From Naegleria gruberi (lineage: Eukaryota): a DNA stretch of 64,000 nucleotides. The notes beneath the pieces are model-generated. The model had not been told where the DNA came from. It made no database searches and was given only the letters and a program-made list of their open reading frames with translations. Position numbers and translations under genes: made by a program. This document shows positions 29,301 to 59,083 of this stretch, piece after piece; the first letter of the stretch is position 1; every line of letters starts with the position of its first letter. The DNA is taken from the NCBI GenBank assembly GCA_000004985.1, contig GG738903.1; one strand, written 5' to 3'.

Positions 29301-31509
29301 AAATACAAGTACCGTGTCCATTACAAGCTCCTAATGCATCACAACTGATTGCTGAACAATTTGCATTACCTTTCCATCCACTATCACAAGTGCATGTATT
29401 TGCGCCTGTACACGTACCATGTCCAGAACAGTAATTTCTTTGATCACAAGTGAAAACTGAACAATCGACAGCACCTCTCCAACCTGTTTTACAACTGCAA
29501 GTGTTATTCGAAACACAAGTACCCTTACTGGCACCTCCACAATTACTTAAGGCATCACAACTAATTGCTGAGCAATTTGCATTTCCTTTCCATCCACTTT
29601 CACAAGTGCATGTATTAGCACCTGTACACGTACCATGTCCTGAACAATAATTAGTTCCGTCACAAGTGAATTCAGAGCAGTTACTAGCTCCTCTCCATCC
29701 TGAATTACAGGTGCAGGTATTTGGACCGCTGCATATTCCGTGTCCATAACAACCTCCAACTAGCTCACAACTCACTGAATTACAACTTGTGTCTCCCTTC
29801 CAACCATCATTACATGAACAAGTATTTGCACCAACACATTCACCATGCCCAGAACAATAATTGCGCGAATCACACGAGAATATTGAGCAATTACTAGCTC
29901 CTCTCCATCCTGAATTACAGGTGCAGGTATTTGGGCTGCTGCATATTCCATGTCCATAACAACCTCCAACTAGCTCACAACTCACTGAATTACAACTTGT
30001 ATCTCCCTTCCAACCAGCATAACAAGAACAATTATTGGGTCCAATACAGTCACCATGAGATGAACAATAATTGCGCGAATCACACGAGAATATTGAGCAA
30101 TTGGCAGCTCCTCTCCAGCCAGTAACACAAGAGCATGTATTAGCAGAAGTACATGTTCCATGGTTTGAACAAACATTTGCTGTATCAGTTGCATTGTAAG
30201 AGTAACAAATTGGAATGTTGCACGAAATTCCAGTCCAATCAGTATTACATGAACAATATGTTTCTGAAGCACAAGAACCATGTCTTCTCCAACATTGTAG
30301 AGATGGCGAACACAATTCATAGGAACAATCAAGTCCTGTATAGTTGGTGGCAGTACAGTTACAACTGTTCGGAGCAATGCAATCTCCCTTATTGTAACAA
30401 ACATTTGGTGATGGATAATAGTAACCGTAGCAAATATTGTATTGGCATTCAGAACCAGTATAACCAGTATTGCAGGAACAAGTATTCGGTGAAGTACAGG
30501 TACCTCTCACAGATCCAGAGCAAGCATTTGCTGTATTATTGGAAGGTATTCCATAGCAAATTGGATATTGACATTTTGGCCCAGTGTATGTCGAATTACA
30601 TTGACATGTGTCAGTATCAATACAGTTACCATGCCCTGAACAAATAACTGATGAGATATTTTTAAAGGTACTCACTCCAAAACATATTGGAATTTCACAA
30701 TTATTTCCTGTGTAACCTTGTGGACATTGACATTGATTAGTAAAAACACAAGTTCCTCTTCCTGAACAAACAGTAGTATCATTTTGTAAAATTCCATTAC
30801 AAATAGTAACATTACAATCATTTCCAAACCAATTGGCTTTACAATTACAAGTATCCAAATCAGTACAATTACCATGTGAATTACAGACATTTGAGGCATT
30901 CTGAACTATTCCAAAGCATGAAGGAGTGCCACATTGAGTACCACTCCATCCATCATCACATTTACACACATTGGTATCGATACAATCTCCATTTCCTTTA
31001 CAAACAGAATTTGTTTCATTCTGTAATATTCCAAAACAGGAGGTAACATTACAATCAATTCCATACCAATTTGATGAGCATGAACAAGTATCAGTACCAG
31101 AACAAGTTCCATGCCCATTACATACAGCACTTGTTTCATTCTGTAATATTCCAAAACAGGAGGTGATTTGACATTGAGTGCCATACCAATCTGGATCACA
31201 TTCACAATTATCTTGTTCGGTACAGTTTCCTCTTCCGTTACAAACTTGGGTTGTGTTTGACAATTTTCCAAAGCAATAGATGAGTGTATTGTTGTTGGAT
31301 TCTTGTGCTTGTGTGAAAAGGAAACTCTCTTTAGTTTCGAATATTTGTTGTTGGTCTTGATGGAATAAAAACATCATGATGAAACAAGTTGACAAAATTG
31401 ATGCATATAAAATTATATTCATCAGAAAGGAATGATTACCCGGAGAAGATTGTTTCCTCCTTGTCATTCCAATACGAGAAAACCCATTATTATTATTGCT
31501 TCTCATCAT
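23377..31509 (-). CDS. Giant adhesion-GPCR-like receptor, 2710 aa. From N to C: signal/anchor, roughly 60 tenascin-type EGF-like repeats, an S/T-rich stalk, a GPS-like motif, 7TM, and a C-terminal RGS domain.
   Basis: Continuous 8.1 kb ORF. Repeats of the form C-x-C-xxG(W/Y)xGxxC. GPS-like 'CRYWNETENAWLGNGCYVSSFVNGDVVCKCDHTTRFGTFL'. Seven hydrophobic helices follow. The C-terminal RGS fold is 'ILFEEFCKKEWSLENLYMYVDIKLF...YEVYIKLGATMEVNIPS...'. Confidence 0.8.
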   Translation of the reverse strand: MMRSNNNNGFSRIGMTRRKQSSPGNHSFLMNIILYASILSTCFIMMFLFHQDQQQIFETKESFLFTQAQESNNNTLIYCFGKLSNTTQVCNGRGNCTEQDNCECDPDWYGTQCQITSCFGILQNETSAVCNGHGTCSGTDTCSCSSNWYGIDCNVTSCFGILQNETNSVCKGNGDCIDTNVCKCDDGWSGTQCGTPSCFGIVQNASNVCNSHGNCTDLDTCNCKANWFGNDCNVTICNGILQNDTTVCSGRGTCVFTNQCQCPQGYTGNNCEIPICFGVSTFKNISSVICSGHGNCIDTDTCQCNSTYTGPKCQYPICYGIPSNNTANACSGSVRGTCTSPNTCSCNTGYTGSECQYNICYGYYYPSPNVCYNKGDCIAPNSCNCTATNYTGLDCSYELCSPSLQCWRRHGSCASETYCSCNTDWTGISCNIPICYSYNATDTANVCSNHGTCTSANTCSCVTGWRGAANCSIFSCDSRNYCSSHGDCIGPNNCSCYAGWKGDTSCNSVSCELVGGCYGHGICSSPNTCTCNSGWRGASNCSIFSCDSRNYCSGHGECVGANTCSCNDGWKGDTSCNSVSCELVGGCYGHGICSGPNTCTCNSGWRGASNCSEFTCDGTNYCSGHGTCTGANTCTCESGWKGNANCSAISCDALSNCGGASKGTCVSNNTCSCKTGWRGAVDCSVFTCDQRNYCSGHGTCTGANTCTCDSGWKGNANCSAISCDALGACNGHGTCISNNTCNCNSGWTEANCNTFTCKDRDFCSGHGTCTGANTCNCVSGWKGNSNCSAITCDGVNSCSQNGQCIGNNTCECRSGWTGASCNVFTCDASSNCNSNGLCISNNTCQCYSGWKGNAECSQFSCDGVSGCSQNGVCIGNNTCQCRSGWSGPKCDIFTCDGVLNCYDHGLCISNNTCQCQSGWKGSSNCSVISCDGVNSCSQNGQCIGNNTCQCRSGWTGSNCNTFTCDASDNCHGNGLCISNNTCQCNTGWKGNAECSAYSCDGVAYCSSQGNCTGANLCNCTSQYTGSRCDIPVCYSLSALDPNVCSNNGSCVAPDTCQCLSGFSSGGQCNKPICYNRTFDDPTQCNAKGICTSPDVCYCTDYNYYGKNCTDYNCYGLNYLNNTVCSGFGKCILPNNCSCNLGYSGNNCQYVSCFGNNTSQDSKFICSGKGSCISPDKCSCVTGYTGDKCQYPICYGINSTMPSVCSGFGQCIDTDLCSCGYGYGGSNCEIFKCENILANSSNVCNQRGSCIGVDFCNCTSTYSGNNCQFSTCFGKNSTDPQVCNGKGQCNSENTCSCQVQGYFGEECTLYQCYSLYFNDTLNVCSGHGQCKSPNNCECTNGFTGENCQTPICFGVNATSLDVCSQNGICNSPNTCECSYPWFGKNCNITQSPITVSLKIGGYTVESYSVYNNISSLSLHAVLGEILPQPYLLENVIYNWTCTNCQGNNGSDYLSNITQSIALFNVYVLPTGTFNLELSAMAVTSEDGVFFYRQSNTFSFNITIIQVPESYSVSVVGVKEAYTTNTLPTSLDIVVPTVSLNQSALVRFLGCNNGGCAAKKVEYSLVVRFNQTLNMLDISGNVTIVPNSALDGFTCSPYLSYSVSNFKSQITNLTQNTAEESILEIILEFRNQDSNSSFSITSTYPIIPPASAPKNTTKLVTIMPTQGMALIENFVFTVQEWSAADSLKPLTYALGVYDSTQQKPVRITSYTTNSTFSSILPYLTQTKKSRSTNDETVTVILFVADKYGNEEWTYSSTVTVSPYNGTVSELLNLLSSASSSEQSVLYSYDTSISTRSISTNESQAVLNQLIDNVQFDIKNPQSALDSFLTITSDPSKMSSEMVDKVNTKLANFVSNVTAQYLEEKALYSFVKTKILDSTVTFSTLKLVSNLLETGLNSEKVESTAESTADTALIGEIPTLVTTGSVPTLSFATDMVNITISAFSLDKSTPTTTNQTLSTGINQVSLDMNSIFQQISNETTGSFGLSFIAYSINSKVDSFSKKSYILAPLTEFTLSMSDSQVELRNLKNPIALTFSLDKTSLSTLTSNKNITNTTMECRYWNETENAWLGNGCYVSSFVNGDVVCKCDHTTRFGTFLQFNLTSAVNSSYKLQVASYYIAEIVFGGIYGIVAVIVLVLLTIFKNKQPIKSRLVAPYLGMIALLTECVLISIIRNSILVNELLSNTLKSAAYETDVTNVVNWFGGIASIIVNTLNLTAILAFLLQVVRYLFMKHLYNLMNVMRNKEGNLLANYAKKITTFKRLTSNPIYYAILCLFAVANILYWTLWFVLKYTGVIGANDYTTIVSVSYCVVILTFALIVALIFVADMILTYKFDDDSKESSISARLTNQGATTEGKGQKKLETKPISADTSSGKGKETIQISTVLHTVWKWFVRRDTPLFYRLEMIFFVAFFIFLIVSQALGLASIDGKFSSSDTKQFTIGLVFDSARFAIETVYIVFYILAFGGFVSLVSLYNFYKKITTEKPNDNKKEEAVELENEELSQVMSDSEGIILFEEFCKKEWSLENLYMYVDIKLFMDTLENKMDDSEEFLKHLYSYCVSTYEVYIKLGATMEVNIPSHSRNSFLLLFKMVVEQGKDKPFVDKVYESILYGELNTKKTKSIPMQSMNAQPIKLDFSQSSVKLVDEQKKAEANNTENKVMWVGYQRMINGCADSLYQQIVMNLSDTFSRFIFTDEYKSFAIVNELKQRMKANARFEL

Positions 31510-35262: not shown

Positions 35263-36840
35263 ATGAAATTCAAGAGGAATAAAACGTTAGACGAAACCGT
35301 TGTGTCTCCTTCCTCGTCAACACCAACCAATACATCATCTTCTTCTACATCCTCTTCAAAGAAAAGACCTAGCAGTGTGAATAGTGACTTTGATGTTTCG
35401 AATTATGCCATTGTTTTTGAAGAAATGATGGATTCGAAAGAAACTCGTGATTTATTCTATGAATATTTGCAGCTTAATCGTTCGGTGGAATCTCTCATGT
35501 TCATGAATCAAGTTGAAGAATATCGTGCGGAATATAACAAGAAATTCGAGAATGTTATTTGTGGTGAAAATGTTGATAAAAAGCAAGTTCATACCAAGAT
35601 TGTGGAAATCTATTCGAAAGCAAGGGGTATTCTTGATCAGTTTGTGTTTCAAGGAGGTCAATTCGAGTTGAATTTGGCCTTTGCTAACAAGGATAAGATT
35701 CGAGAACTTTGGGAAACAAAAGTTTGTGAAAGTTTTGAAAAATTGGACAAGGAAAGATTGGAGGTTGAGAAACTTTCGAAAATCATTTCCATGTTGGAAA
35801 CTGATACATTGTTTGGACTTGCAATGTTTAGTGTGAATTTGGATTTGAGGTTTGATCAATTTCCAAGATTTTCCAGATCTGAAATGTTAATGAAATTCCT
35901 CGAGTCGAAAGGAGAACGATTCACCAGAGCCATTGCAACAGATATTTCTAAAGGTTTCCAATTAGATATTCGATTCAAACCTCATCATTTACAAGATTCA
36001 ACCATTGATGACAAGTTTATTTACTTTGGTTTCACCCTCGCTGAGGACACACCTGATTGGGAATTGACCTATTCAGATAAGAAGAATACCTGTGAATTGT
36101 ACCAATCCAAAACTTCCTATGTATTCGATACTGAAACATTGAAAGGTTTGAGATTGAGTAAGGTTGTCACTCGTGTACCATATCCAATTGAAGAAGTCTG
36201 GGCATGCTTCTGGAATATAGATCTCCATAAGGTGATAGATCCTATGGGAGGTGCAGAAACTTTCAAATTAATGGATTACATTTCACCTGTATCTGAAGCT
36301 GAAGGAAAACCAAATTATTCGAATCAACAAGTTTCATGTTGTACGAAATTCCCAATTCCATTCATGAAGAAGAGAGATTTACCAATCACCATGACAGCAA
36401 TCAGAGATCCAGAACTTAACATGATCATGGTTGCAGGACACACTTGTTCACTAATCGAAACTAGAGAAGATTGCATCCCAGCTCAACTCATGTTTTACTA
36501 CATGTTCTATAAGGTCAGTGATAATGAAACTCGTTTCATTCACACTGTGTATACTGATTTGAAGTTGCCTCTAAATCCTTCCTTAATGCTCAAAGTAATC
36601 ATGTTGAAGAGAGCTAAGGATTATAAGAAAGGTTTCGAGCAACAAATTACTCGCCTTCGTAAGGAAAAAAGTACAAAGGATGGTCTGATGGATACTTCCC
36701 AATTTGTGGATGCTATGAAATATAATTTGGCCATTGAGGAGAATACTAAATTATATCCTAATAGATCGTGGTATAATGAATGGCTTCAGTTGAGAGAGAA
36801 ACGACTCAGCTTGAACATGTCAGATGCAAAATCAAATTAA
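35263..36840 (+). CDS. RGS-domain protein (N-terminal RGS, C-terminal domain unknown), 525 aa
   Basis: ATG at 35263. The RGS signature is 'FEEMMDSKETRDLFYEYLQLNRSVESLMFMNQVEEYR...IYSKARGILDQFVFQGGQFELNL' (compare ...F..FL..E.S.ENL.FW...E.YK....EVNLD). The S/T-rich N-terminus has no signal peptide. Confidence 0.6.
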   Translation: MKFKRNKTLDETVVSPSSSTPTNTSSSSTSSSKKRPSSVNSDFDVSNYAIVFEEMMDSKETRDLFYEYLQLNRSVESLMFMNQVEEYRAEYNKKFENVICGENVDKKQVHTKIVEIYSKARGILDQFVFQGGQFELNLAFANKDKIRELWETKVCESFEKLDKERLEVEKLSKIISMLETDTLFGLAMFSVNLDLRFDQFPRFSRSEMLMKFLESKGERFTRAIATDISKGFQLDIRFKPHHLQDSTIDDKFIYFGFTLAEDTPDWELTYSDKKNTCELYQSKTSYVFDTETLKGLRLSKVVTRVPYPIEEVWACFWNIDLHKVIDPMGGAETFKLMDYISPVSEAEGKPNYSNQQVSCCTKFPIPFMKKRDLPITMTAIRDPELNMIMVAGHTCSLIETREDCIPAQLMFYYMFYKVSDNETRFIHTVYTDLKLPLNPSLMLKVIMLKRAKDYKKGFEQQITRLRKEKSTKDGLMDTSQFVDAMKYNLAIEENTKLYPNRSWYNEWLQLREKRLSLNMSDAKSN

Positions 36841-39210: not shown

Positions 39211-42200
39211 ATGTCTCTTGACTACTGTATGGTCTCTAACAGAGTAAAACTCTGTAAGGTTACTGTTTGTATGCTTGTGACCCTAGTTATCTTGTCCATT
39301 TTGGCTTCTAATACTAATGCATTTGAATGTACAGGTACAGATTCTTGTAATGGTAGAGGTTTTTGTTCAACCACAGGTGATTCTTGTCAATGTTTGACAA
39401 CTCTCAACTATGATTTGAATAATAATGCCAATACTATGGTTGCTAACTCTTCCCTTTCATTCTATACTCTAGGTTCAAGTGATGGAGAAGAACCATCCTA
39501 TACTTTCATTTCTGGTAATACTACCTATGTTTCCAAAATTACTTTTGATGGTACTAATGTAAATGTTATTGTAAAGAATCAAAGTATTTTGACTCAAGAT
39601 GTTGGTAGTGGATATCAATACCTCACTCTCAAAATTGATGGTAGTTTAGGAATGTGTCAAAGTGATAAGATTGATTGTGTTGCTCTCACTAGTAACGGTG
39701 GTGTTAATTCTGCTGCTTGTAATGGAACTGGTCCTTTCTATTTCTTCTTTAGAAAGGATGGTTTAATCTCTGTTTTAGATAGTACTGGTGCAGAATGTTG
39801 GAACAGTAATGTTTTCGATTCATCAGTTAAATATCAAGATTTTGCTGGTACTAGTTGTCAAGATTCATTGTATTATTGTAATGGTATTGTAAATACTGAT
39901 GCTAATGTTTGTAGTGGTAAGGGAAAGTGTGGTTCTACTGGTTGTACTTGTAACAATACAACTCAATGGACTGGATCTGATTGCTCAACCCCTATTTGTT
40001 ATGGTTTACCTTCTACTGATGCTAACGTTTGTAAAGGAAGAGGTTCATGTGCTGCTCCAGATTCTTGTTCATGCACTATTGGTCAAGCTCCATATTGTAA
40101 TGTAACTTGTGGAAATGTTTCTGAAAGTTCTCCTAGTGTCTGTAATGGATTTGGTCAATGTATTTCCCAAGATACTTGTCAATGTACAAATCCAAATTAT
40201 TCTGGTAAGAATTGTGATGTTTATAGTTGGGTATGTCAAGATGTCAATTCTTGTAACTCTAAAGGTTTCTGTGCCAATAGTACTTTGTGTGATTGTTCCT
40301 ATGATTACATGAATATTGTTAATGGTGGTGCTACTCTCTATCGTGATGTTGTTACTAATGCTTTTGCTAATTCTCCAAATTTCAATTGTTCCCTTCGTCA
40401 AGTTGCTACTGTTGTAAATAATCAAACTGTATATCCATTGGTAGGAATTTGTGGTGGTGTCACTATTTGGACTTATCCAATTACTACTTTTACTAGTTTA
40501 CTTGAATATCTCACAATTACAGCAAATGGTCACGTTCTTGTTGAAGGTAACACTCAACTCTTAGATTTCAATTCTAATATGGCAATTAATACAACCACTC
40601 CTGTTTACAGTATGGGAAATGATGGTGTATTCAGAATTTACTCATCCACTGGTACAAATACCTATTCTCTTGGTACTTCAAATGGTCTTACAGGTTGGAC
40701 TCTTGCTTATGGTCAACAATGTCAATCTTCACACAGTTTTTGTAATGGTCTCCTCGATACTGATCCAAATGTTTGTAGTAGACGTGGTTCATGTGTTATG
40801 GGAAGTTATTGTGATTGTAAGCATGGTTTTGGTGGTACTAATTGTGAAAAGGAAGCCACTTGTGATGGAATTCCTCAATCATCCAACTTAACTTGTTCAG
40901 GACATGGTAATTGCACTTTCCAGGGATGTACTTGTACTGCTCCATACTATGGAAGTAATTGTTCTCAAAGATATTATACCTGTTATGGTATTGCTTCAAC
41001 AAATCCATCTACTTGTAGCGCTAATGGTAAATGTGTTGAAGACAATACTTGCGTTTGTAATAATGGTTTCAGTGGATCAATGTGTCAAAGTCTTTCATCT
41101 AACAATGGAACTAACAATGGTACAATCAACAATAATGGTACAATTAATAACAATGGTACTGTTAATAATAATGGAACTATTAACAATAATGGTACAACCA
41201 ATAATAATGGTACTGCTAACAATGGTACTGTTAATAACAATGGAACAATTAACAACAATAATGGTACATCTAATAATGGTACTTCCAATAATAATGGAAC
41301 CGTTGTTGATCCATGTAAGAATATCACTTGTCAATATGGTATTTGCTCTGCAGGCAAGTGTATCTGTAGTTATAGTACCGATTATTTCTATTATGGACCT
41401 ACTTGTTCAAAATACAGTGCAGTTATGTGTCAAAGCTTAATGCAAGCTTCCACAGCTCCATTCTGTGCCTCAGTTGGTGTAACTCCTAATATTATGAATT
41501 TTGTTTCTGAACTTGGTTATAATCTTCTTGCTAAATATAATGGTGCGCTTAATGAAAGCGTTGTCAGTGCTCAAGCTGTTTCAGAACTAGATAATGCTGC
41601 CTTGTTAATGTCTCAAGCATTCGTCAAAGCTTGTACCAATGATGCTTGCCGTCTTGCCTATAAGAGATATGCTTGCTATTCACAATTCCCAATTTGTTCT
41701 GCAAATACTTACATGCCAGTTTGTAATGGTGCTTGTACTACTGCCCTTAGTCCATATCCACTTCCAAATGTTAATTTGACAAGTTTGTGTGGATCTCTTC
41801 CATCTAAATATTGTACCAATGATATTAACTATGTAGATGCCAAGTGTGTTGGTGTAACTTGTTCTGGTCGTGGATCTTGTTCAAATGGAACTTGTAATTG
41901 TGCAAGTGGCTATACTGGTGCTAATTGTGAACAAGTTATCATTCCATACTCTCTCACTCCTGCCTGTGTAAATGTAATGTCCTCATCTTCAACTCCTTTC
42001 TGTGCCTCTGCTGGAGTTGTTCTCCCATTGTATAATGTTAATTTAATGAATGGTGCTAAGAGTGAAAGCCAAGCTGCTAGTATGCTTGCTGCTAGTTTAG
42101 CTCAATTAGATGCCCAAGCTAATGCTACCTTCTTAACTGGATCTTCTTATAATCCTAATTGTGCAACTGCTGATTGCTTGATTCATATTAAGAGATATGC

Positions 42201-45200
42201 ATGTTATACTACATTCAAGTCTTGTATTAATACTACTTCAACTGCTGTTCCATGGTGTAAATCTGCATGTCAAATCATGTATACTCAAGCTAGTACTATT
42301 GCTAATTTTAGTTATCCAATGAATGCTACATGTGACTCATTCCCTGACTCCAACTGTAACTACGGTGTCTACCTTCCTTCCACTACCACTTGTTTTGGTA
42401 AATCAATTAAGGATGCTACTGTATGTTCAGGAAAAGGATCATGTATTTCTCAAGATACTTGTAATTGTGCAAATGGTTATTCTGGAAGCAATTGTGAAAA
42501 GGCAGTTTGTTTCTCAAAGATTAGTTCTGATTCATCAGTTTGTTCAGGAAGAGGTTCATGTGTTGCTCCAAATAGTTGTACATGTAAAACAGGATACACA
42601 GGAGAAAAATGTGAACTTCCAACATGTAATGGTAAGAGTGATGTTTTGGGTGGTTGTTCATTCCGTGGATCTTGTAATACTACTGATTCTTGTATCTGTA
42701 ATGGTAATTTTGATTCATCAACATTCTGTTCTAAATGTAAGAGTGGTTATGTTGGATCAAATTGTGATGTTCCAGTATGTTTCTTAATTTCTGCCACTGA
42801 TAGTACTGTTTGTGGAGGTCAAGGTTCTTGCATTAGTCCAAACACTTGTAAATGTAAATCAGGATATTCAGGCACTGCTTGTCAAACCTTCTCTTGTTAT
42901 GGTATTTCAAAGACTGACAGTAATGTCTGTGGTGGAAGTACAAGAGGTTCATGTATTGGTCCAGACAATTGTAAATGTGTTACCAATTGGAACAATAAGA
43001 ATAATACTTGTACTAGTTGCAGTCCTGCATACACTGGTTCTTCATGTACTACTCCAGTTTGTAGTGCAACTGATACATGTAATTCTCATGGTACTTGTGA
43101 TTCTAATTTCAAGTGTGTCTGTACTGGTAATTTCATTGGTGATTATTGTTCATCATGTGCCACTGGATTTGTTGGTGCAAATTGTGATATTTCTTGCTCA
43201 GCTGCCAAGACATGTAATTCACACGGTTCATGTACCAATACTGGTTCTTGTACTTGTAATGGTAATTTTGATCCTTCTTTCAATTGTGCATCTGCTAAAT
43301 GTCTTAATGGTTTCTTGGGTGATGGATGTAATTACAAGGTTGATACATCTTCTTTCAAGTTCAATGCTAATGGTGATAGAATTACTGCTACCATTTATAA
43401 TGCTGTCAAGACTCAAGTTGCCTGTTCTCAAATTATTTCATCTCTCTCCAAGCTTGGTACTGGTCCAATTTGTAACATGGATGGTAAATCATCTATTGAA
43501 ATTATTTTAGGTGTTGGTGCTACCATTGTTACTGGTGATTCATTAACTCTTTATTCATTGATTGGTGACTCTAGCTCAACTGTTAATGCTGTTGTTTCTG
43601 CTGGTGAATTTGTTGCTTTAGCACCAACTTCTGCATTGACTTCTGACAAGTCTCTTGTTTCCCAATGTGATGTTTTGAATTTGAATGCATTTGATTCTGT
43701 TTCTCTTGATCGTCGTCCTCTTACATTCTCTTGGACTTGTACTGCTGGTCCATCATCAGATGATCAAACCAAATTGAATTCTTTAATTTCCTCTACTACA
43801 TTGAGTGGTATCNNNNNNNNNNNNNNNNNNNNNNNNNNNNNNNNNNNNNNNNNNNNNNNNNNATTGCTCAAGCAGCTCCAACTCTTTCAATTAAGGAAGG
43901 TACTTCTGTTAAATTCCTCATTGGAACTACAAGTCTCATTACACCAGTAATTTCATTCCCAACTTGTTATACTGGTACAGGTGCTACAACTTATACATTT
44001 ACACTTGATGGATCTGTTTCAAAGGTTTCATCCTTATCAGTTTCTACCAAGAATAACTTGTTGGTCCTTGGTTCTAGTTTTACCAATATTAATCAAGAAG
44101 GTGATTATTACTTTATTGTAACTGCATCTGCTGATAGTGCTCAAGCAGTTAGTACAACTGTTAAAGTTAGTGCTGTTGCTCAACCTATTTCAGTTGCATT
44201 CAGTGTTCCAGATATGACTCAATCTAAGGATGACCCAGTTGCCTTCTCTATTTCTGTTACTGATCCAAGTAATACTCAAGATACATTGACTCTCTCAACA
44301 ACATGTATTGATTCAACTGGTACTTCTTGTTCTAATCCAGGTTCTGCTTCATCATTCAGTTCTTCATTCGCAGCTGGTACTTATATCTTTACTACCACTG
44401 CTACTAAGGGTTCAAGAACTTCAAGTGCCAAATTGACAATTACAGTTCTCGATACTTCAAAGAGTTTAATTGTCAGAGTTTCAATTACTTCCAATGTTGA
44501 TTTGACAACTGTTGATCCAACAAAGGACTTGTATTTGACCTATAATACTTTGGATTCCTTGTCTGCTCCAACATTCTCTTGGACCTCTGCTACTGGTGAT
44601 GTTTCTTCAAGTTCTCTTCTCATCATTCCAAGCTCTAATCTTGTTCCTGGTTCTTCCTATGTTGTTTCTTTATCAGTTGTTGATGGTGCTAAATCCGGTA
44701 CTGCATCTGTCACAATTACAGTCAACTCTCCTCCAACAGTTGGTGTCTTTGAAGTTTATCCAACTAGTGGTGTTGCTTTGAGTGATTCATTCAGTCTCAA
44801 GTGTGGTAATGGTTGGTCTGATCCACAAACTCCATTATCATTCCAATTCTTCTTCTATGATTCTGTATCTATGAAGTGGAATTCACTCACTGAAAAGTCT
44901 CAACAACAAAGTGCCAACATTCAACTTCCATCACCAAGTTCAGGTTCAACATTGACTATTAAGGCTGTTGTTTATGATGCTTTGGGAGCTTCTTCTGAAT
45001 CTAGAACAAATATTACCATTACTCAACCAAGTAATGCCGACGTTGCAAGTACTTTAACTTCAATGGCAAAGGGTACTAATACTGTTACCTTGTCTGGTGT
45101 TAGTGCTGCAATGTTTGTTATTGGTGCTGTTAGTAATCCAACTGATGCTGAAAAGGCAGCCATTCAACAAGCTTCTACTGCACTTGCCAATTCATTCTTA

Positions 45201-46151
45201 TTACAACAAGCTCAAAGTGCTGCTGTTACATCACTTTCTTCATCAGCAGCTGAAAGTAGTATCTCCTTCTCAAGCTCTGTTGCTGGTTCAGTTTCAAAGG
45301 GTCTCTTTGCTGATTCAACAACTTCTCAAGTTATTTCAAGCTTGTCAAATACTACATCTTCTGTAACATCAAGTTCTTCTGTTAGTCTTTCTGATGATGC
45401 TATTGCAAGTACTTTGGCAACTGCTAATAATTTCCTTGCCTACATCAAGTCCAAATTATCAAAGAGATCTTTCAGTTCTGCTGATCTTACTAATTTGAAT
45501 GCTGTCTTTGCAAGTGTTGCTTCTATCAAGACTAAGAATGTTGTTCCTGATGCACCAGCTGCTACTGTAACTGCCAATGGTGTCACAACTTCTTCTCGTA
45601 AGGTCAATCTTGCTTCTTTGAATTCTATGGCTCAAAATACTACAGGAAAGGATCAAATCAAGTTCAAGAATAATATTGCCGCATTGACTGCCTTTGCTAA
45701 TGCCAAATCTGTTAGTGTTACAGTCAAGACAACTAGTACATCTGTTACTAATGCTGTCACCAATGCCATGACATTCTCATTTGCTGATGGAACTAGTTCT
45801 GCAACTATTTCAGTTTCTAGCTCTTCTCCAATTGCTGATTTGGTATTTGGTACAACCAAGAGTTTGACAAGATCAATCACTGCAACCCAAGTCATCTGTA
45901 AATCTGTCGATTCAAGTGGTGCTGCTTCAGATGCTTCAGGATGTACTGTTGTAATTGGAAGTGATGGTACTGCCACAGCAACTGTTTCAAGTACTGGTAC
46001 TTATTTGTTGACTCAACAAACAATTACTGCTACATCGAGTGGTAAAACTGTTACTCCTAAACCTTCAAAGCTCAGTAGTGCTCCAGCAAGTACTTTCTCA
46101 ATGATGTTGACTCTTTTCATTGCTGCTATTACATTGATTATTTTACAATAG
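39211..46151 (+). CDS. Giant cell-surface protein, over 2300 aa. It has a signal peptide, EGF-like cysteine repeats, two Frizzled-type CRD-like modules, a tandem NGT sequon array, an S/T-rich stalk and a GPI-anchor-like C-terminus. It spans a 50-N gap.
   Basis: ATG at 39211. Signal/anchor 'VTVCMLVTLVILSILASNTNA'. Repeats of the form CxCxxG(Y/F)xGxxC. Two CRD-like modules with '...CRLAYKRYACYSQFPICSANTYMPVCNGAC' and '...CLIHIKRYACYTTFKSCIN...PWCKSAC'. 'NGTNNGTINNNGTINNNGT...' lies at about 41098..41295. The frame that is open from the gap edge (43863) runs to 46151 and ends 'STFSMMLTLFIAAITLIILQ'. Continuity across the gap is assumed. Confidence 0.65.
43813..43862. other. Assembly gap (50 N) inside the giant surface-protein gene
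   Basis: A run of N characters. Confidence 1.
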
Positions 46152-52047: not shown

Positions 52048-54099
52048 ATGGCTAAATTTCACATTTGTTTGTTCACACTAATGTTGCTGTTACTAATTTC
52101 TTGTTCAACAGTGGCTGGAATTTCGTCTGGGCTTTTGTCAAAGGTGAAGGATGGTGATTGTGTGGTTGGGGTGAGAACGTTTCTGATAATGTTTGTGTGG
52201 AAACATAAATTTTCAAACGAAACTTTGACGAAACTGATTACTGCTAAAGATAATGATTCCAGAAGAAAGTATTTGGTCGAAAATTTGCAGGAGAGAGGTT
52301 TAACTATCGGTACCATACGCGACTATACTCCTTTTCTTTCAAATTATTTCAAATATTCTAATCTTTCGCTTTCTCATGGCCTTTCGAATAGCATACTATC
52401 ATCTAGCTATTTTTCCATTTACCCACAAGTTGACATGTGTCAAAGAAGAGATTATTTTACGAGATATGATGCCTTTTTGTTAGATCCCTATGACTTTGCT
52501 TATTACGTCAGGTTTTACAGAGATCTTGGGATGACATCTGGCATGTTCATGAATAGTGATGACTTTGTAGCTGTACCACTCATTCCCTTCGAAGTCTACA
52601 CTCAAACTACAAGAAATCAAGTTTCCTCCTTATTTGATTTGAATGTTGCAAGCTGTGATGCAAAACCTGATATTTCTGATGCGCAGTTTTTGAGAAGGTT
52701 GACAGGTTATGCTAATTTTTCACAGCAAGATGTTGAAATAATTGGTAATGTTACTGGTAAATCACAAATTTATGGAAATTGGACACTTGTGAATAACTTT
52801 CTAAATATGGAGATGACAGAACTTACCATAAATGAAACATGGCAAGAATTACTACCTTCCACATGCTACATGTGTTCAACAGATGGTTGTTATGGTGAAA
52901 ATTTCAGGCCTGATCTTGATCTTTTCTTCATTCCACAGTTAGTAATTATAGTAATTTACTTTTTATTACTTTTTGGGTTGAAAATTTACAAAAAACCTTC
53001 AATGAAACGAAGAATTGGAATTCCCTATACTCCGATTCTTATCTTGGTTGTCATGATTACCTTTGCCGGAGTTTCTAGAACTTGTGTTGGCGTTTGGTAT
53101 AGTGCATGTTTGTTTTGTTTGTTTTGGTGGATATTGATCTATATCAGTACAATTATTCGATTCTACTATTTGCGTAATTTGTATGCTCTCATAGTGATGT
53201 TTCCAAATAGAGAAAAGATGTTGAAAATGTTAGCTTCTCAGAAAGTTGGAATACTCATGACAGTTATGTTGACTTTTGTCATTTCACAAATATTGAATCT
53301 AGTGAGTGTTTACTTTTTTGTAAATGAAGATAAGGCTGCCACTGATTTTTATAGACCCATTATTGGTATCATTATTTTATTATCGTTGTGGGTCTTTGGT
53401 GGTTGTTGCTTTTTATTAGATTTGTTTCTTCAGAGAAAAACTATTCGACAGGGTGGTATTCGAAAGTTTTTCTTCTTTGATGATCCATTCTACTTGAGAA
53501 TAGACTTGATTTCTACCATATTACCTGTCATTATTGCGATACTTACAGGAATTGAGGCAACCTCAAATGAAGTTGTTGATGGTCTTGCAGGAGTTTCCAA
53601 TACTTTACTTTGTTTTAGTTTCGTTCAGATTAGTGGGGGAAATGTGCTAATGATTGAGATTTTCAAAAGGGTAAAAAGAAGAAAGGAATCTTCGCAATTG
53701 ACATGGGATCAAGAATTAACAAATACAGATTTACTCCAAATTTTAAAGGAGTATTGCGAAAAGGAGTTTAGTTCAGAGAATTACGAATTTTATATTAAGT
53801 TGAAATCACTCCAGAATAGAAAGTTTATCAAGTTGAAGGAACTGCAAAAAATTGAAGCTGAATTTATTCGAAACTATTCAAAATACGAAGTGAATATTCC
53901 ATCTTCATGCAAAAAGACTTTTTATGAACTTTTAAACAAATGCCAAGAAGAAACTCAATTAGAATTTCAATTAATTTGGGATTGTGTTGCTCCAGAATTA
54001 TTACTCAACCTTCAAGATACCTTCAGTCGATTACAAGATACCTCAATATATGCCAAATGGCTTTCAGTCCAATCTTTGAAAGAAAATAATAATGTTTAG
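52048..54099 (+). CDS. 7TM receptor with a C-terminal RGS domain, 683 aa. It has a signal peptide and an ectodomain of about 270 aa.
   Basis: ATG at 52048 (aaaaaaATG). Signal 'MAKFHICLFTLMLLLLISCSTVAG'. Seven hydrophobic helices between about aa 290 and 520. C-terminal RGS 'LLQILKEYCEKEFSSENYEFYIKLKSLQN...YSKYEVNIPSSCKKTFYELL'. Confidence 0.75.
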   Translation: MAKFHICLFTLMLLLLISCSTVAGISSGLLSKVKDGDCVVGVRTFLIMFVWKHKFSNETLTKLITAKDNDSRRKYLVENLQERGLTIGTIRDYTPFLSNYFKYSNLSLSHGLSNSILSSSYFSIYPQVDMCQRRDYFTRYDAFLLDPYDFAYYVRFYRDLGMTSGMFMNSDDFVAVPLIPFEVYTQTTRNQVSSLFDLNVASCDAKPDISDAQFLRRLTGYANFSQQDVEIIGNVTGKSQIYGNWTLVNNFLNMEMTELTINETWQELLPSTCYMCSTDGCYGENFRPDLDLFFIPQLVIIVIYFLLLFGLKIYKKPSMKRRIGIPYTPILILVVMITFAGVSRTCVGVWYSACLFCLFWWILIYISTIIRFYYLRNLYALIVMFPNREKMLKMLASQKVGILMTVMLTFVISQILNLVSVYFFVNEDKAATDFYRPIIGIIILLSLWVFGGCCFLLDLFLQRKTIRQGGIRKFFFFDDPFYLRIDLISTILPVIIAILTGIEATSNEVVDGLAGVSNTLLCFSFVQISGGNVLMIEIFKRVKRRKESSQLTWDQELTNTDLLQILKEYCEKEFSSENYEFYIKLKSLQNRKFIKLKELQKIEAEFIRNYSKYEVNIPSSCKKTFYELLNKCQEETQLEFQLIWDCVAPELLLNLQDTFSRLQDTSIYAKWLSVQSLKENNNV

Positions 54100-54244
54100 A
54101 ACCTTACAACTCTATTGTCATAATAAATATGATAATATTTCAATGTAGGTTCTTGGGTTTTCGGACAAATCGATTCAACACTACAAAGAAAGACCAGTAA
54201 GAAAGCTGCTCTATTTTGGCGTATAATTTTTAAAATTACTTTTC

Positions 54245-57200: not shown

Positions 57201-58238
57201 NNNNNNNNNNNNNNNNNNNNNNNNNNNNNNNNNNNNNNNNNNNNNNNNNNNNNNNNNNNNNNNNNNNNNNNNNNNNNNNNNNNNNNNNNNNNNNNNNNNN
57301 NNNNNNNNNNNNNNNNNNNNNNNNNNNNNNNNNNNNNNNNNNNNNNNNNNNNNNNNNNNNNNNNNNNNNNNNNNNNNNNNNNNNNNNNNNNNNNNNNNNN
57401 NNNNNNNNNNNNNNNNNNNNNNNNNNNNNNNNNNNNNNNNNNNNNNNNNNNNNNNNNNNNNNNNNNNNNNNNNNNNNNNNNNNNNNNNNNNNNNNNNNNN
57501 NNNNNNNNNNNNNNNNNNNNNNNNNNNNNNNNNNNNNNNNNNNNNNNNNNNNNNNNNNNNNNNNNNNNNNNNNNNNNNNNNNNNNNNNNNNNNNNNNNNN
57601 NNNNNNNNNNNNNNNNNNNNNNNNNNNNNNNNNNNNNNNNNNNNNNNNNNNNNNNNNNNNNNNNNNNNNNNNNNNNNNNNNNNNNNNNNNNNNNNNNNNN
57701 NNNNNNNNNNNNNNNNNNNNNNNNNNNNNNNNNNNNNNNNNNNNNNNNNNNNNNNNNNNNNNNNNNNNNNNNNNNNNNNNNNNNNNNNNNNNNNNNNNNN
57801 NNNNNNNNNNNNNNNNNNNNNNNNNNNNNNNNNNNNNNNNNNNNNNNNNNNNNNNNNNNNNNNNNNNNNNNNNNNNNNNNNNNNNNNNNNNNNNNNNNNN
57901 NNNNNNNNNNNNNNNNNNNNNNNNNNNNNNNNNNNNNNNNNNNNNNNNNNNNNNNNNNNNNNNNNNNNNNNNNNNNNNNNNNNNNNNNNNNNNNNNNNNN
58001 NNNNNNNNNNNNNNNNNNNNNNNNNNNNNNNNNNNNNNNNNNNNNNNNNNNNNNNNNNNNNNNNNNNNNNNNNNNNNNNNNNNNNNNNNNNNNNNNNNNN
58101 NNNNNNNNNNNNNNNNNNNNNNNNNNNNNNNNNNNNNNNNNNNNNNNNNNNNNNNNNNNNNNNNNNNNNNNNNNNNNNNNNNNNNNNNNNNNNNNNNNNN
58201 NNNNNNNNNNNNNNNNNNNNNNNNNNNNNNNNNNNNNN
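54245..58238. other. Assembly gap (3994 N)
   Basis: A run of N characters. The ORFs reported across it are artefacts. Confidence 1.
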
Positions 58239-58747
58239 ATTAGTAAGGTCCTGTATCAATTTCATGAGGATCTGTATTGTGGATGTAATTGTCACATCCC
58301 TGTAGGTGTCAAGTAGATCAGCCATGTACCATGTATGATATGGATGATCTTCAAAATCATATAGATATATTTAATTATCATGTATAGATGTATTAGAAGT
58401 GAATTGAAGTGGTATAGATTTCTATCTTCAATGTTAGAACAGGTTAGTTGACAAGTTGAATATTAAATATCCTGAAATGATACCAAAGTATATGAAATTG
58501 ATATATATTGTTATTAACATTATTTATAAGATGATATATTGATTTGAAATGATTTAGAAATGTTTTCATTGATATTCTAATTGTCTAATCTATTATATGA
58601 AATTAACTTATATAAGTCATTATAATGATGTAATATTATGTTATAATATGATTATATATTCAATTTGGAGTAAATTGATATATAATATATTGATTTATAA
58701 TGAGTATTTATTGAGATAATGAATTAAGATGAATAAAAGTCAAAATG

Positions 58748-59083
58748 TTGGGTCTGGCCTTAGTCGTGGGTTTGGGTTTGGTTAGGTTGGGTTTGGGTGT
58801 TGGTTGGGGTTTGGGTGTTGGTTGGGGTTGGGTTTGGGTTTGGGTTTGGGTTTGGGTTTGGGTTTGGGTTTGGGTTTGGGTTTGGGTTTGGGTTTGGGTT
58901 TGGGTTTGGGTTTGGGTTTGGGTTTGGGTTTGGGTTTGGGTTTGGGTTTGGGTTTGGGTTTGGGTTTGGGTTTGGGTTTGGGTTTGGGTTTGGGTTTGGG
59001 TTTGGGTTTGGGTTTGGGTTTGGGTTTGGGTTTGGGTTTGGGTTTGGGTTTGGGTTTGGGTTTGGGTTTGGGTTTGGGTTTGG
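58748..59083 (+). repeat. Telomere-type (GGGTTT)n array, with the G-rich strand on the plus strand. Its proximal edge is degenerate and it runs into a gap.
   Basis: It begins with degenerate units 'gggtctggccttagtcgtgggtttgggtttggttaggttgggtttgggtgttggttgggg', then about 45 perfect GGGTTT units up to the N run. Confidence 0.85.

What the first reader, a model, noticed from the sequence alone, without database searches (positions are those of the whole stretch)
39211..46151. Giant GPI-type surface protein combining EGF-like repeats, two Frizzled-type CRD-like modules and a tandem array of 12 NGT sequons
This ORF system of about 6.9 kb is open from the gap edge through to 46151. It encodes a signal peptide, many CxCxxGxxGxxC repeats and two modules of about 110 aa whose Cys spacing and 'KRYACY..FP.C...PVC..AC' core resemble Frizzled cysteine-rich domains. 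It also encodes 'NGTNNGTINNNGT...', which gives 12 N-glycosylation sequons in about 65 residues. A long S/T-rich stalk then ends in a hydrophobic tail typical of a GPI signal. Such a dense engineered N-glycan patch next to FZ-CRD modules is unusual. It suggests a heavily glycosylated adhesion or ligand-capture protein. The 50-N gap at 43813..43862 leaves the exact join unknown.
Basis: partly seen in the sequence, partly recalled or inferred. Interest (0 to 1): 0.55.

Follow-up and report, generated by a model that had tools for sequence, protein, structure and literature searches.

The report
Naegleria-type EGF/REJ mosaic surface glycoprotein gene
This is one large gene of a Naegleria-like amoeba for a cell-surface glycoprotein built from EGF repeats, two very divergent Frizzled-like cysteine-rich modules, a sugar-site-rich linker and a polycystin-type REJ domain; it is real but mostly an ordinary protist mosaic protein with an unnamed counterpart already in databases.

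Summary
Window 39211..43812 (1534 codons) and 43863..46151 (762 codons plus stop) are both open, and the 50-N gap separates them. Two Naegleria gruberi proteins align collinearly across the gap, and each implies about 35 missing codons. It is therefore one gene of about 2,330 aa. It is the orthologue of N. gruberi XP_002672407.1 (2481 aa, 'predicted protein').

- **EGF repeats:** confirmed by Pfam.
- **NGT array:** 12 NGT in 71 aa. It is a slippage-type DNA repeat. The orthologue has a different N/S/T tract with 26 sequons at the same position.
- **'S/T-rich stalk':** this reading is wrong. The region is a REJ domain (Pfam E=9e-48) followed by a conserved stretch of about 300 aa next to the membrane anchor.
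- **CRD modules:** the two modules are real paralogues and are conserved in N. gruberi. They fail Pfam Fz (11 bits against a cut-off of 32). They still show a weak, reciprocal, above-chance Fz-like signal: 16 bits against a custom Fz HMM with 0/1000 shuffles reaching it, and hhalign P of 2e-4 to 3e-3, with 9 of the 10 Fz cysteines aligned in order. AlphaFold models were unusable.
- **GPI signal:** plausible and conserved in the orthologue, but not tested with a predictor.

Verdict: a real, modestly interesting mosaic surface protein. The Fz relationship is probable but unproven.

The parts
39211..39321 (+). Start codon and signal-peptide-like N-terminus (aa 1-37, MSLDYCMVSNRVKLCKVTVCMLVTLVILSILASNTNA|FE).
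   Evidence: In-frame stops lie upstream. Kyte-Doolittle hydrophobic segment at aa 12-34. The orthologue P0002 has an equivalent N-terminus followed by the same F(K/E)CTG..SCNGRGFC motif. The cleavage site was judged by inspection only.
39388..39876 (+). Non-EGF module L1 (aa 60-222), beta-rich, family unknown.
   Evidence: 43% identical to P0002 aa 52-216. No Pfam hit. A PDB profile search gives only weak hits to bulb-type lectins and PQQ propellers, E 0.02-0.4.
39877..40281 (+). EGF-like repeat block a (aa 223-357).
   Evidence: Pfam EGF_2 / EGF_Teneurin / EGF_TEN. CxC motifs at aa 245, 286 and 323.
40282..40746 (+). Non-EGF module L2 (aa 358-512), distantly related to L1.
   Evidence: 37% identical to P0002 aa 353-507. 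L1 of N. gruberi against L2 of the window gives E=2e-6 over 61 aa. No Pfam hit.
40747..41097 (+). EGF-like repeat block b (aa 513-629).
   Evidence: Best Pfam EGF_TEN stretch is aa 515-722.
41098..41310 (+). Low-complexity Asn-rich linker with 12 NGT sequons in 71 aa.
   Evidence: The orthologue carries a different 156-aa N/S/T tract with 26 sequons at the same position.
41311..41427 (+). EGF-like module c, lying between the sequon linker and CRD 1.
   Evidence: CxC unit at aa 717. Conserved in P0002.
41428..41814 (+). Cysteine-rich module 1 (aa 740-868, 10 Cys), a divergent Frizzled-like CRD candidate.
   Evidence: Pfam Fz E=0.63, 11.1 bits. Weak PDB hit to the FAM155A CRD, E~0.5. Custom Fz HMM 5.0 bits, reached by 8/1000 shuffles. 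hhalign against Fz CRDs. 47% identical to P0002 aa 887-1038.
41818..41964 (+). EGF-like module d, lying between the two CRDs.
   Evidence: Best Pfam EGF_Teneurin stretch is aa 882-908.
41965..42357 (+). Cysteine-rich module 2 (aa 919-1049, 10 Cys), a divergent Frizzled-like CRD candidate.
   Evidence: 35% identical to module 1, E=6e-13. 65% identical to P0002 aa 1067-1218. Custom Fz HMM 16.0 bits, reached by 0/1000 shuffles; the alignment spans Fz C3-C9 including F.YP...C..FP.
42358..43329 (+). EGF-like repeat block e (aa 1050-1373, about 8 modules).
   Evidence: Pfam EGF families. From aa 1148 on (to aa 1534) it is 41% identical to P0001 aa 96-475. It lies within the 65%-identical stretch aligned to P0002.
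43330..43812 (+). N-terminal part of the REJ region (aa 1374-1534, with the PLTFSWTC motif), running up to the gap.
   Evidence: Collinear with P0001 aa 320-475 and P0002 up to about aa 1691. The Pfam REJ match after the gap starts at profile position 92.
43813..43862 (.). Assembly gap (50 N placeholder), inferred to hide about 35 codons (about 105 bp) of the same gene.
   Evidence: Both homologues align on both sides and leave 35 residues unmatched: P0001 476-510 and P0002 1692-1726.
43863..45086 (+). REJ domain (the Pfam match is C-part aa 56-408 = 44028..45086).
   Evidence: PF02010 E=8.8e-48, 163.5 bits against a cut-off of 25. The same domain is found in P0001 and P0002.
45087..46010 (+). 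Conserved post-REJ region next to the membrane anchor. The first half is Ala/Leu-rich and helix-like. The second half is beta-like and ends in the conserved motif CK-x13-15-C..V...T..V.STG.Y.
   Evidence: Three-way alignment A3. No Pfam or PDB sequence match. It sits where polycystin-1 has its GAIN/GPS domain, but the GPS test was not convincing.
46011..46151 (+). Ser/Thr/Pro linker, candidate omega-site stretch (KLSSAPAS), 17-residue hydrophobic tail ending in Q, and the stop codon.
   Evidence: The orthologue ends the same way (KISMAPAV...CLISFLLAIVVFYQY). The paralogue P0001 instead has a 25-residue TM segment plus an RKRKRAKVQGV tail.

Best explanation
Window 39211..46151 (+) is a single intron-less gene of about 2,330 codons. 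It belongs to a heterolobosean amoeba of the Naegleria lineage and is the orthologue of N. gruberi NAEGRDRAFT_52311. It encodes a mosaic glycoprotein that lies entirely outside the cell.

**Domain order**
1. Signal peptide.
2. One EGF module.
3. Beta-rich module L1.
4. Three EGF modules.
5. Beta-rich module L2.
6. Three EGF modules.
7. A fast-evolving Asn-rich linker dense in N-glycosylation sequons.
8. EGF, cysteine-rich module 1, EGF, cysteine-rich module 2.
9. About eight EGF modules.
10. REJ domain.
11. A conserved region of about 300 aa next to the membrane anchor.
12. A C-terminal hydrophobic tail that most likely acts as a GPI-attachment signal.

**Shown here:** the ORF, the single-gene status, the EGF and REJ domains, the paralogy and conservation of the two cysteine-rich modules, the sequon array, and the two-hydrophobic-segment topology.

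**Inferred**
- (i) The cysteine-rich modules are very divergent members of the Frizzled-type CRD superfamily (about 65% likely).
- (ii) The tail is replaced by a GPI anchor (about 65%).
- (iii) The sequon tract is heavily N-glycosylated and serves as an extended hydrophilic spacer.
- (iv) The protein is an adhesion or recognition receptor in the style of the sea-urchin receptor for egg jelly. A distal ligand-binding head (L1/L2 and the CRDs) is held away from the membrane on stiff EGF rods above a REJ stalk. Because it has no cytoplasmic part, any signalling must go through a transmembrane partner (about 40%).
For: **One gene**
- Both pieces are open.
- P0001 aligns to aa 1148-1534 before the gap and aa 6-714 after it.
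- P0002 aligns at 65% and 61% identity on the two sides.
- Each homologue leaves 35 residues for the gap.

**Orthologue identity:**

**Domains:**

**The modules are real:** E=6e-13 between them, and both are present in P0002.

**Fz-like signal**
- hhalign gives P=3e-3, with 0/200 column shuffles reaching the score. With a broader Fz alignment, P=8.5e-4 local and 1.8e-4 global.
- A custom Fz HMM gives 16.0 and 9.1 bits for the two module-2 copies, with 0/1000 shuffles reaching either score.
- That HMM hits only the four modules. It hits none of the EGF arrays in 6,700 aa of control protein.
- The reciprocal module HMM scores real Fz CRDs at a mean of 7.1 bits, against -0.9 for shuffled ones.
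- The alignment places C1, C2, the 'GYN' motif, C3-C7 and C9 in register.

**GPI-type topology:**

**Architecture parallel to suREJ** (one EGF, two lectin modules, REJ module): PMC2120838.
Against: - Pfam Fz is far below its gathering score, and three of four modules give no Pfam hit at all.
- hhalign probability is only 10-24%.
- Fz cysteine C8 is missing, and an extra cysteine sits four residues before C3.
- Both AlphaFold models were unusable (pLDDT 32.8 and 37.8), so the fold is untested. The Foldseek search run on the second, 4-sequence model was meaningless.
- No GPI predictor was available, and a tail-less transmembrane anchor is not excluded.
- L1 and L2 are not shown to be lectins.
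- The post-REJ region gave no GAIN/GPS signal.
- No expression or functional data exist for this protein or its orthologue. Literature searches found nothing specific.
Confidence: 0.65

Rival explanations
1. The cysteine-rich modules are a Naegleria-specific helical disulfide domain unrelated to Frizzled CRDs. On this view the shared cysteine spacing (C-x8-C-x6-C-x8-10-C-x3-C) is convergence or chance.
For: - Pfam Fz fails its cut-off.
- The PDB profile search gives only E=1.5.
- hhalign probability is 10-24%.
- The family has a single representative cluster among 1.84 billion proteins and none in metagenomes, so it is isolated.
- One Fz cysteine is missing and one extra cysteine is present.
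Against: - The signal is reciprocal and specific. There were 0/1000 and 0/200 shuffles reaching the real scores.
- Hits fall only on the modules, even though about 40 EGF repeats served as cysteine-rich decoys.
- Non-cysteine motifs also align: GYN after C2, K/R-x-[YF] before C4, F-P-x-C, and F.[YW]P...C..[FL]P.
- All the weak library hits are Fz-type CRDs.
Confidence: 0.3
2. The C-terminal hydrophobic stretch is a permanent transmembrane anchor, making this a type I protein with essentially no cytoplasmic tail, rather than a cleaved GPI signal.
For: - The paralogue P0001 uses a true TM segment plus a basic tail at the same position.
- The REJ proteins described so far (suREJ, polycystin-1) are transmembrane proteins (PMC2120838).
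- No GPI predictor was run.
Against: - The tail is only about 15-17 hydrophobic residues and ends the protein (one Q after it in the window, YQY in N. gruberi).
- A small-residue S-x-A-P-A stretch lies 6-7 residues upstream, as GPI signals require, and it is conserved in the orthologue.
- The paralogue's TM segment is much longer (25 residues, KD 4.05) and is followed by RKRKR.
Confidence: 0.3
3. It is a structural extracellular matrix or cyst-wall glycoprotein rather than a receptor. The EGF rods and glycan-rich linker would provide material properties, and the other modules would cross-link polysaccharide.
For: - Long tandem EGF arrays can be purely mechanical, as in octovafibrin (PMC10336842, listed).
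- A second giant EGF protein lies 8 kb away.
- There is no cytoplasmic domain.
Against: - A membrane anchor signal is conserved in two species.
- The REJ domain is characteristic of receptor ectodomains close to the membrane (PMC2120838).
- The mosaic of four non-EGF binding-type modules is conserved in order between species.
Confidence: 0.2
4. The two halves are separate genes that happen to abut the assembly gap.
For: The frames differ across the 50-N placeholder, and the sequence inside the gap is unknown.
Against: - Two independent N. gruberi proteins run straight through the equivalent point, and each predicts the same 35 missing residues.
- The gap falls inside the REJ region.
- The downstream piece has no ATG-initiated signal peptide of its own. 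It is open from the first base after the gap.
Confidence: 0.03

Closest known systems
Naegleria gruberi XP_002672407.1 / NAEGRDRAFT_52311 / UniProt D2VUB5 (2481 aa, 'predicted protein')
   Same: The domain order is the same from signal peptide to hydrophobic tail. Identity is 65% (CRDs and EGFs), 61% (REJ to tail) and 40% (N-terminal third). Both CRD modules, both L modules, a sequon-rich linker and the S-x-A-P-A plus tail ending are present.
   Different: The linker is 156 aa of mixed N/S/T with 26 sequons instead of an NNNGT repeat. There are two or three extra EGF modules before CRD 1. The protein is uncharacterised, so it gives no functional information.
[quoted passage not shown]
   Same: It is a modular surface glycoprotein with EGF module(s), paired non-EGF binding modules and a large REJ region next to the membrane (PMC2120838). 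The Pfam REJ match is strong.
   Different: - There is no C-type lectin, PKD, LRR or WSC module.
- No GPS motif was detected.
- There is no 11-TM/PLAT channel-like part and no cytoplasmic tail.
- It has about 20 EGF modules and two CRD-like modules, which those proteins lack.
Frizzled-type cysteine-rich domains (Pfam PF01392; FZ-CRD superfamily including MuSK, ROR, sFRP, SMO and the divergent Mid1/FAM155 group)
   Same: - The size is similar (about 130 aa) and there are ten cysteines.
- The order and spacing of C1, C2, C3-C7 and C9/C10 match.
- The motifs GYN, F-P-x-C, P-x-C-x3-C and F.[YW]P...C..[FL]P match.
- The C-x3-4-C-x8-C start of the core resembles FAM155A.
   Different: - The score is below the Pfam threshold.
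- The C2-C3 segment is longer (about 55 residues against about 36).
- Fz C8 is absent and an extra cysteine precedes C3.
- The host is an organism without Wnt signalling (my own knowledge).
- Any ligand would more likely be a lipid, sterol or protein partner, as for other members of the superfamily (inference).
Naegleria gruberi paralogue P0001 (1286 aa, EGF + REJ + TM)
   Same: The EGF block, REJ region, post-REJ region and the CK...C...STG.Y motif are collinear, at 34-41% identity.
   Different: It lacks the L modules, the sequon linker and both CRDs. It ends in a 25-residue TM segment with a basic cytoplasmic tail.

Membership tests
Frizzled CRD (Pfam PF01392 Fz) | Score at or above the Pfam gathering threshold (32.1 bits). 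| tested here: not met
   Module 1 scores 11.1 bits, E=0.63. Module 2 and both N. gruberi modules give no hit.
Frizzled CRD (FZ-CRD superfamily, remote homology) | Profile similarity to bona fide Fz CRDs that is significant, reciprocal and specific. | tested here: inconclusive
   - hhalign P=3e-3, 8.5e-4 and 1.8e-4, with probability 10-24%. No column shuffle out of 200 reached the score.
- Custom Fz HMM: 16.0, 9.1, 5.0 and 2.4 bits, reached by 0, 0, 8 and 43 of 1000 shuffles.
- The hits fall only on the modules.
- Overall this is above chance but below the usual acceptance levels.
Frizzled CRD (FZ-CRD superfamily) | Ten conserved cysteines in Fz order and spacing. | tested here: inconclusive
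   Ten invariant cysteines per module. Nine align with Fz C1-C7, C9 and C10. C8 has no counterpart, and an extra cysteine lies 4 residues before C3.
Frizzled CRD (FZ-CRD superfamily) | Mainly alpha-helical fold with five disulfides and a hydrophobic ligand groove. | not testable with these tools
   AlphaFold2 gave pLDDT 32.8 (2 sequences) and 37.8 (4 sequences). Foldseek on the second, 4-sequence model gave no hit with E<1. Only four homologous module sequences exist in the searched databases.
REJ domain (Pfam PF02010) | Score above the gathering threshold (25 bits). | tested here: met
   163.5 bits, E=8.8e-48, covering profile positions 92-433 of 452. The first about 90 profile positions fall before or inside the gap.
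Polycystin-1 / PKDREJ / suREJ3 family | GPS/GAIN autoproteolytic domain after the REJ domain (HL|T cleavage motif). | tested here: not met
   No Pfam GPS or GAIN hit at E<=10. No PDB hit with a 3-sequence profile. An HMM built from GPS motifs recalled from memory gave 4.2, 1.5 and 0.7 bits, reached by 9, 86 and 109 of 1000 shuffles. The conserved motif is STG.Y, not HL[ST].
Polycystin-1 / PKDREJ / suREJ3 family | Multi-pass (11-TM) membrane region with a PLAT domain. | tested here: not met
   There are only two hydrophobic segments, the signal peptide and the terminal tail. No PLAT or PKD_channel hit.
EGF-like repeat proteins (Pfam EGF_2, EGF_Teneurin, EGF_TEN) | Multiple matches above the gathering thresholds. 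| tested here: met
   EGF_TEN 106 bits (cut-off 65), EGF_2 89.8 bits (cut-off 22.1), EGF_Teneurin 89.6 bits (cut-off 24.3), with 6-10 stretches each.
GPI-anchored surface proteins | An N-terminal signal peptide, plus a C-terminal signal made of small omega / omega+2 residues, a spacer of about 6-10 residues and a terminal hydrophobic stretch with no cytosolic residues. | tested here: met
   By inspection and hydropathy only: KL-S-S-A-PASTFS-MMLTLFIAAITLIIL-Q. The orthologue has KI-S-M-A-PAVNLS-CLISFLLAIVVFYQY.
GPI-anchored surface proteins | Positive call by a trained predictor, or biochemical evidence (PI-PLC release). | not testable with these tools
   No GPI predictor is installed and no material is available.
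Bulb-type (GNA-like) lectin, for modules L1/L2 | Pfam B_lectin match or significant similarity to solved lectins. | tested here: not met
   No Pfam hit at E<=10. The PDB profile search gave garlic and related lectins only at E=0.08-0.4, below PQQ-propeller hits at E=0.02.

The most novel reading that the evidence does not exclude
The two modules would be genuine, highly divergent Frizzled-type CRDs in a heterolobosean (Discoba). Fused to a REJ ectodomain on a GPI anchor, they would form a lipid- or sterol-sensing recognition receptor that signals through a transmembrane REJ paralogue or a polycystin-type channel. If so, the Fz-CRD fold and its pairing with polycystin-like sensory modules would date to early eukaryotes, long before Wnt/Hedgehog signalling.
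Probability: 0.12. Interest if true: 0.6.

Novelty: new variant of a known kind. Interest (0 to 1): 0.3.

Why it matters
If the modules are true Fz-type CRDs, they add a Discoba lineage to the distribution of this ligand-binding fold, in a new domain context (Fz-like CRD + REJ + GPI). That bears on how animal Wnt, Hedgehog and polycystin receptor modules were assembled from older parts. Large surface glycoproteins of Naegleria are also candidate adhesion and recognition molecules in a genus that includes the brain-eating N. fowleri. That relevance is indirect, because the species of the window is not established. The practical result for annotation is that the 50-N gap splits one gene, and the downstream half should not be called separately. 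Otherwise this is a typical protist mosaic surface protein whose orthologue is already deposited, without a name.

Tried and rejected
- **Word-indexed homologue search with module 1.** It found nothing. With the C-terminal part it found only the paralogue P0001 and missed the orthologue. In my three searches the returned proteins were never much longer than the query, so P0002 (2481 aa) may have been excluded on length. This is my guess.
- **Full HMMER scan of 1.84 billion representatives with the 2-module profile.** It returned a single hit, P0002, so a deep alignment is not possible.
- **Metagenome scan with the 4-module alignment.** No relatives were found.
- **AlphaFold2 on module 1 with 2 and then 4 sequences.** pLDDT stayed below 40. 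Foldseek against the PDB on the second, 4-sequence model returned only noise such as ExbB and 14-3-3. I did not build a mixed alignment with real Fz CRDs, because that would be circular.
- **PDB searches.** I ran sequence or profile searches for the modules, the post-REJ region, the whole C-terminal part and L1/L2. Nothing was significant.
- **GPS/GAIN hypothesis for the post-REJ region.** The position and a tempting ungapped match to the latrophilin GPS suggested it. An HMM built from five GPS motifs recalled from memory gave no convincing score, so I dropped the claim.
- **Exact-match look-ups** of the neighbouring 639-aa ORF and of P0002, tried to obtain species and synteny. Neither is on record, so the species within or near Naegleria stays open.
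- **Literature searches** for Naegleria with REJ, Frizzled, FZ-CRD or GAIN found nothing specific. Pei & Grishin 2012 on the FZ-CRD superfamily is not held.
- **Rejected: 'two genes'.** See the rival explanations.
- **Rejected: an 'engineered' glycan patch.** The DNA is a degenerate period-15/18 repeat.

Full report
**Observation**

The region was read directly.
- An ATG at 39211 has in-frame stops upstream. It opens a frame that runs without a stop for 1534 codons to 43812, the last base before a run of exactly 50 N (43813..43862).
- From the first base after the gap (43863) a different frame is open for 762 codons, to a TAG ending at 46151. The frame shift follows simply from a placeholder length that is not a multiple of three.
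- The N-terminal piece is 9.3% Cys, 12.8% Ser, 10.4% Asn and 10.3% Thr. The C-terminal piece is 19.5% Ser and 14.3% Thr, with only 6 Cys.
- Hydropathy finds just two hydrophobic segments. One is aa 12-34, a signal-peptide-like N-terminus. The other is the last 19 residues.

- **EGF repeats.** Pfam EGF_TEN, EGF_2 and EGF_Teneurin score E=1e-25 to 2.5e-30. There are 15 CxC-x(5-14)-C units.
- **NGT array.** There are 12 NGT in 71 residues (aa 630-700, window 41098..41310). About 1.3 sequons would be expected from the composition of the rest of the protein.
- **Two cysteine-rich modules.** They are 129 and 131 aa long (41428..41814 and 41965..42357) and 35% identical to each other, E=6e-13.

**One gene or two**

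A word-indexed search with the C-terminal piece returned a Naegleria gruberi protein, P0001 (1286 aa). A full HMMER scan of 1.84 billion representative proteins with a profile of the two modules returned exactly one protein, P0002. This is N. gruberi XP_002672407.1 / NAEGRDRAFT_52311, 2481 aa, annotated only as 'predicted protein'.

Both proteins are collinear with the window on both sides of the gap:

| Homologue | Window piece | Homologue residues | Identity |
|---|---|---|---|
| P0001 | aa 1148-1534 (before gap) | 96-475 | 41% |
| P0001 | C-part 6-714 (after gap) | 516-1228 | 34% |
| P0002 | aa 695-1528 (before gap) | 851-1685 | 65% |
| P0002 | C-part 1-758 (after gap) | 1727-2478 | 61% |
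| P0002 | N-terminal third | not itemised | 40% |

Each comparison leaves 35 residues for the gap, so about 105 bp are missing and the join is in frame. The gap falls inside the REJ region. I conclude that this is one gene of about 2,330 codons and the orthologue of P0002.

The source organism is a relative of N. gruberi but not the sequenced NEG-M copy. GC is about 0.34. Neighbouring genes encode RGS, TPR and GT61 proteins and another giant EGF protein. Exact-match look-ups did not identify the species.

Pfam places a REJ domain (PF02010) on C-part residues 56-408 at E=8.8e-48, 163.5 bits against a cut-off of 25. Both N. gruberi proteins have the same domain. The match starts at profile position 92, so the start of the domain lies before and inside the gap. 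The 'PLTFSWTC' motif sits there.

After the REJ match come about 300 conserved residues. The first half is Ala/Leu-rich. The second half is beta-like and ends in the invariant pattern CK-x13-15-C..V...T..V.STG.Y, just before the tail. This is where polycystin-1 carries its GAIN/GPS domain, so I tested that idea:
- No Pfam GPS or GAIN hit.
- No PDB hit with a three-sequence profile.
- An HMM built from GPS motifs that I recalled from memory gave 4.2 bits or less, and shuffled sequences often reached that.

The GPS reading is therefore not supported. The region remains a conserved stalk of unknown fold next to the membrane anchor.

**The NGT array**

At the DNA level the tract is a degenerate tandem repeat, with periods of 15, 18 and 54 and 71-88% matches. 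This is the signature of replication slippage in an AT-rich genome, not of design. In the orthologue the same position holds a 156-aa tract of different sequence (…NTTNTSNTTLSNNTTTTNNTN…) with 26 sequons.

What is conserved is therefore a sequon-dense, low-complexity linker between the second EGF block and the CRD pair, not the NGT repeat itself. Heavy N-glycosylation is a reasonable inference but is untested. An EGF module separates the tract from the first CRD.

**Are the modules Frizzled-type CRDs?**

Pfam Fz gives 11.1 bits (E=0.63, cut-off 32.1) on module 1. It gives nothing on module 2 or on either N. gruberi module.

The weak evidence nevertheless points one way:
- **Reference set.** I fetched 120 genuine Fz CRD proteins with the mouse Fz8 CRD as query. 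My recalled sequence matched two database entries at 100%. I cut out 70 CRDs from these.
- **hhalign.** The four-module profile against these CRDs gives a local score of 23.5, P=3.1e-3 and probability 10%. None of 200 column-shuffled controls reached it (mean 12.3, maximum 21.0). I then added seven more diverse CRDs from memory, five of which the tool-derived Fz HMM recognises. With these, local P falls to 8.5e-4 and global P to 1.8e-4.
- **Forward HMM, filters off.** A plain HMM of the 71 Fz CRDs (the 70 cut-outs plus the mouse Fz8 query) gave the scores below.

| Module | Bits | Shuffles reaching the score (of 1000) |
|---|---|---|
| Window module 2 | 16.0 | 0 (shuffle maximum 8.4) |
| N. 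gruberi module 2 | 9.1 | 0 |
| Window module 1 | 5.0 | 8 |
| N. gruberi module 1 | 2.4 | 43 |

- **Specificity.** Scanned over whole proteins, this HMM hits only the four modules. It gives only a negative score on P0001. In the window protein and P0002 it reports nothing on the EGF arrays outside the modules. It also gives only negative scores on the neighbouring 2710-aa EGF giant. The signal is therefore not generic cysteine richness.
- **Reciprocal HMM.** An HMM of the modules scores real Fz CRDs at a mean of 7.1 bits (maximum 15.6). Shuffled Fz CRDs score a mean of -0.9 (maximum 7.3).
- **Aligned features.**
  - Module cysteines align with Fz C1, C2, C3-C7 and C9/C10.
  - 'LGYNLL' aligns with the Fz 'IGYNxT' motif.
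  - 'KRYACY..FP.C' aligns with 'LKFFLCS.Y.P.C'.
  - 'P.C..AC' aligns with 'PPCRS.CE'.
  - 'F.YP...C..FP' aligns with 'GF.WP...C..fP'.
- **Differences.** The C2-C3 segment is longer. There is no counterpart of Fz C8. An extra cysteine lies four residues before C3, a feature shared with FAM155A.

Structure prediction could not settle the question. With two and then four sequences, AlphaFold2 gave pLDDT 32.8 and 37.8, and Foldseek on the second, 4-sequence model returned noise. No further homologues exist in the representative library or in the metagenome contigs.

My reading is that these are probably (about 65%) very divergent members of the FZ-CRD superfamily. They cannot be filed as Pfam Fz domains on present evidence.

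**The membrane anchor**

The protein ends …KPSKLSSAPASTFSMMLTLFIAAITLIILQ. The orthologue ends …TKISMAPAVNLSCLISFLLAIVVFYQY.

Both have three features in common:
- small residues in an S-x-A arrangement;
- a spacer of six or seven residues;
- 15-17 hydrophobic residues that finish the protein.

The paralogue P0001 instead has a 25-residue TM segment followed by RKRKRAKVQGV. This fits a GPI-attachment signal and is conserved. No predictor was available, so a tail-less TM anchor remains possible.

**How it most likely works**

Shown here: a protein that lies entirely outside the cell, has a conserved order of modules and has a single C-terminal anchor.

Inferred: it is an adhesion or recognition receptor. 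The distal part carries the candidate ligand-binding units. These are two beta-rich modules, L1 and L2, which are conserved in N. gruberi but have no family assignment, and the two CRDs. That part is held away from the membrane by EGF rods and a glycan-rich spacer, above a REJ stalk.

The nearest described design is the sea-urchin receptor for egg jelly. It has one EGF module, two lectin modules, a REJ module of about 700 residues and a membrane anchor (PMC2120838). With no cytoplasmic part, the Naegleria protein could signal only through a partner. Transmembrane REJ paralogues such as P0001 are obvious candidates (speculation). If the CRDs are Fz-like, a lipid, sterol or protein ligand is more likely than a Wnt, since Wnts are animal-specific (established knowledge).

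**Comparison with what is known, and novelty**

The gene family is already in public databases as an unnamed N. gruberi prediction, and Pfam detects its EGF and REJ domains automatically. New here are the recognition of two cryptic Fz-like CRDs, the conserved GPI-type ending and the conserved sequon-rich linker. Together they give a domain combination (Fz-like CRD + REJ + GPI) that is not described for animal REJ proteins. Literature searches found nothing on it. I rate it a new variant of a known kind, with modest interest.

**Limits**

- The species is not identified.
- There are no expression data.
- The Fz relationship rests on sub-threshold statistics from only four sequences.
- Part of the broadened Fz alignment and the whole GPS test used sequences recalled from memory, flagged as such above.
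- The GPI, glycosylation and functional statements are inferences.

Noticed in passing
window 23377..31509 (- strand): A second giant ORF of 2710 aa, made almost entirely of teneurin-type EGF repeats (Pfam EGF_TEN E=1e-132) with 75 N-glycosylation sequons. It has an N-terminal hydrophobic segment and a non-repetitive C-terminal region. It shares 36-38% identity with the EGF block of the finding's protein, but has no REJ domain and no CRD-like module.
   Followed up: partly
They are conserved in the N. gruberi orthologue (43% and 37% identity) and weakly related to each other. They have no Pfam family. The only PDB matches are marginal ones to bulb-type mannose lectins and PQQ beta-propellers, through a 'DG.f.vY.stG' motif.
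   Followed up: partly
window 54245..58238 and 59084..62871: Two long N runs (3994 and 3788 bases) show that this is a scaffolded draft assembly. The 'ORFs' listed across them (for example 54096..58325 and 58745..62911) are artefacts of translating N. The short islands of sequence between and after the N runs show strongly positive GC skew, though most of each 2-kb composition window there is N.
   Followed up: no
window 35263..36840 and 52048..54099 (+ strand): Two ORFs with RGS (regulator of G-protein signalling) domains flank the locus. A GT61 glycosyltransferase ORF lies at 3335..4912 (-). No functional link to the surface protein was examined.
   Followed up: no
database behaviour: The word-indexed protein search missed the 2481-aa orthologue, both with a 148-aa query and with a 762-aa query, although the exhaustive HMMER scan found it at E=1e-62. 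In all three searches the returned proteins were not much longer than the query. Negative results from that tool for short domain queries against giant proteins should therefore not be trusted.
   Followed up: partly
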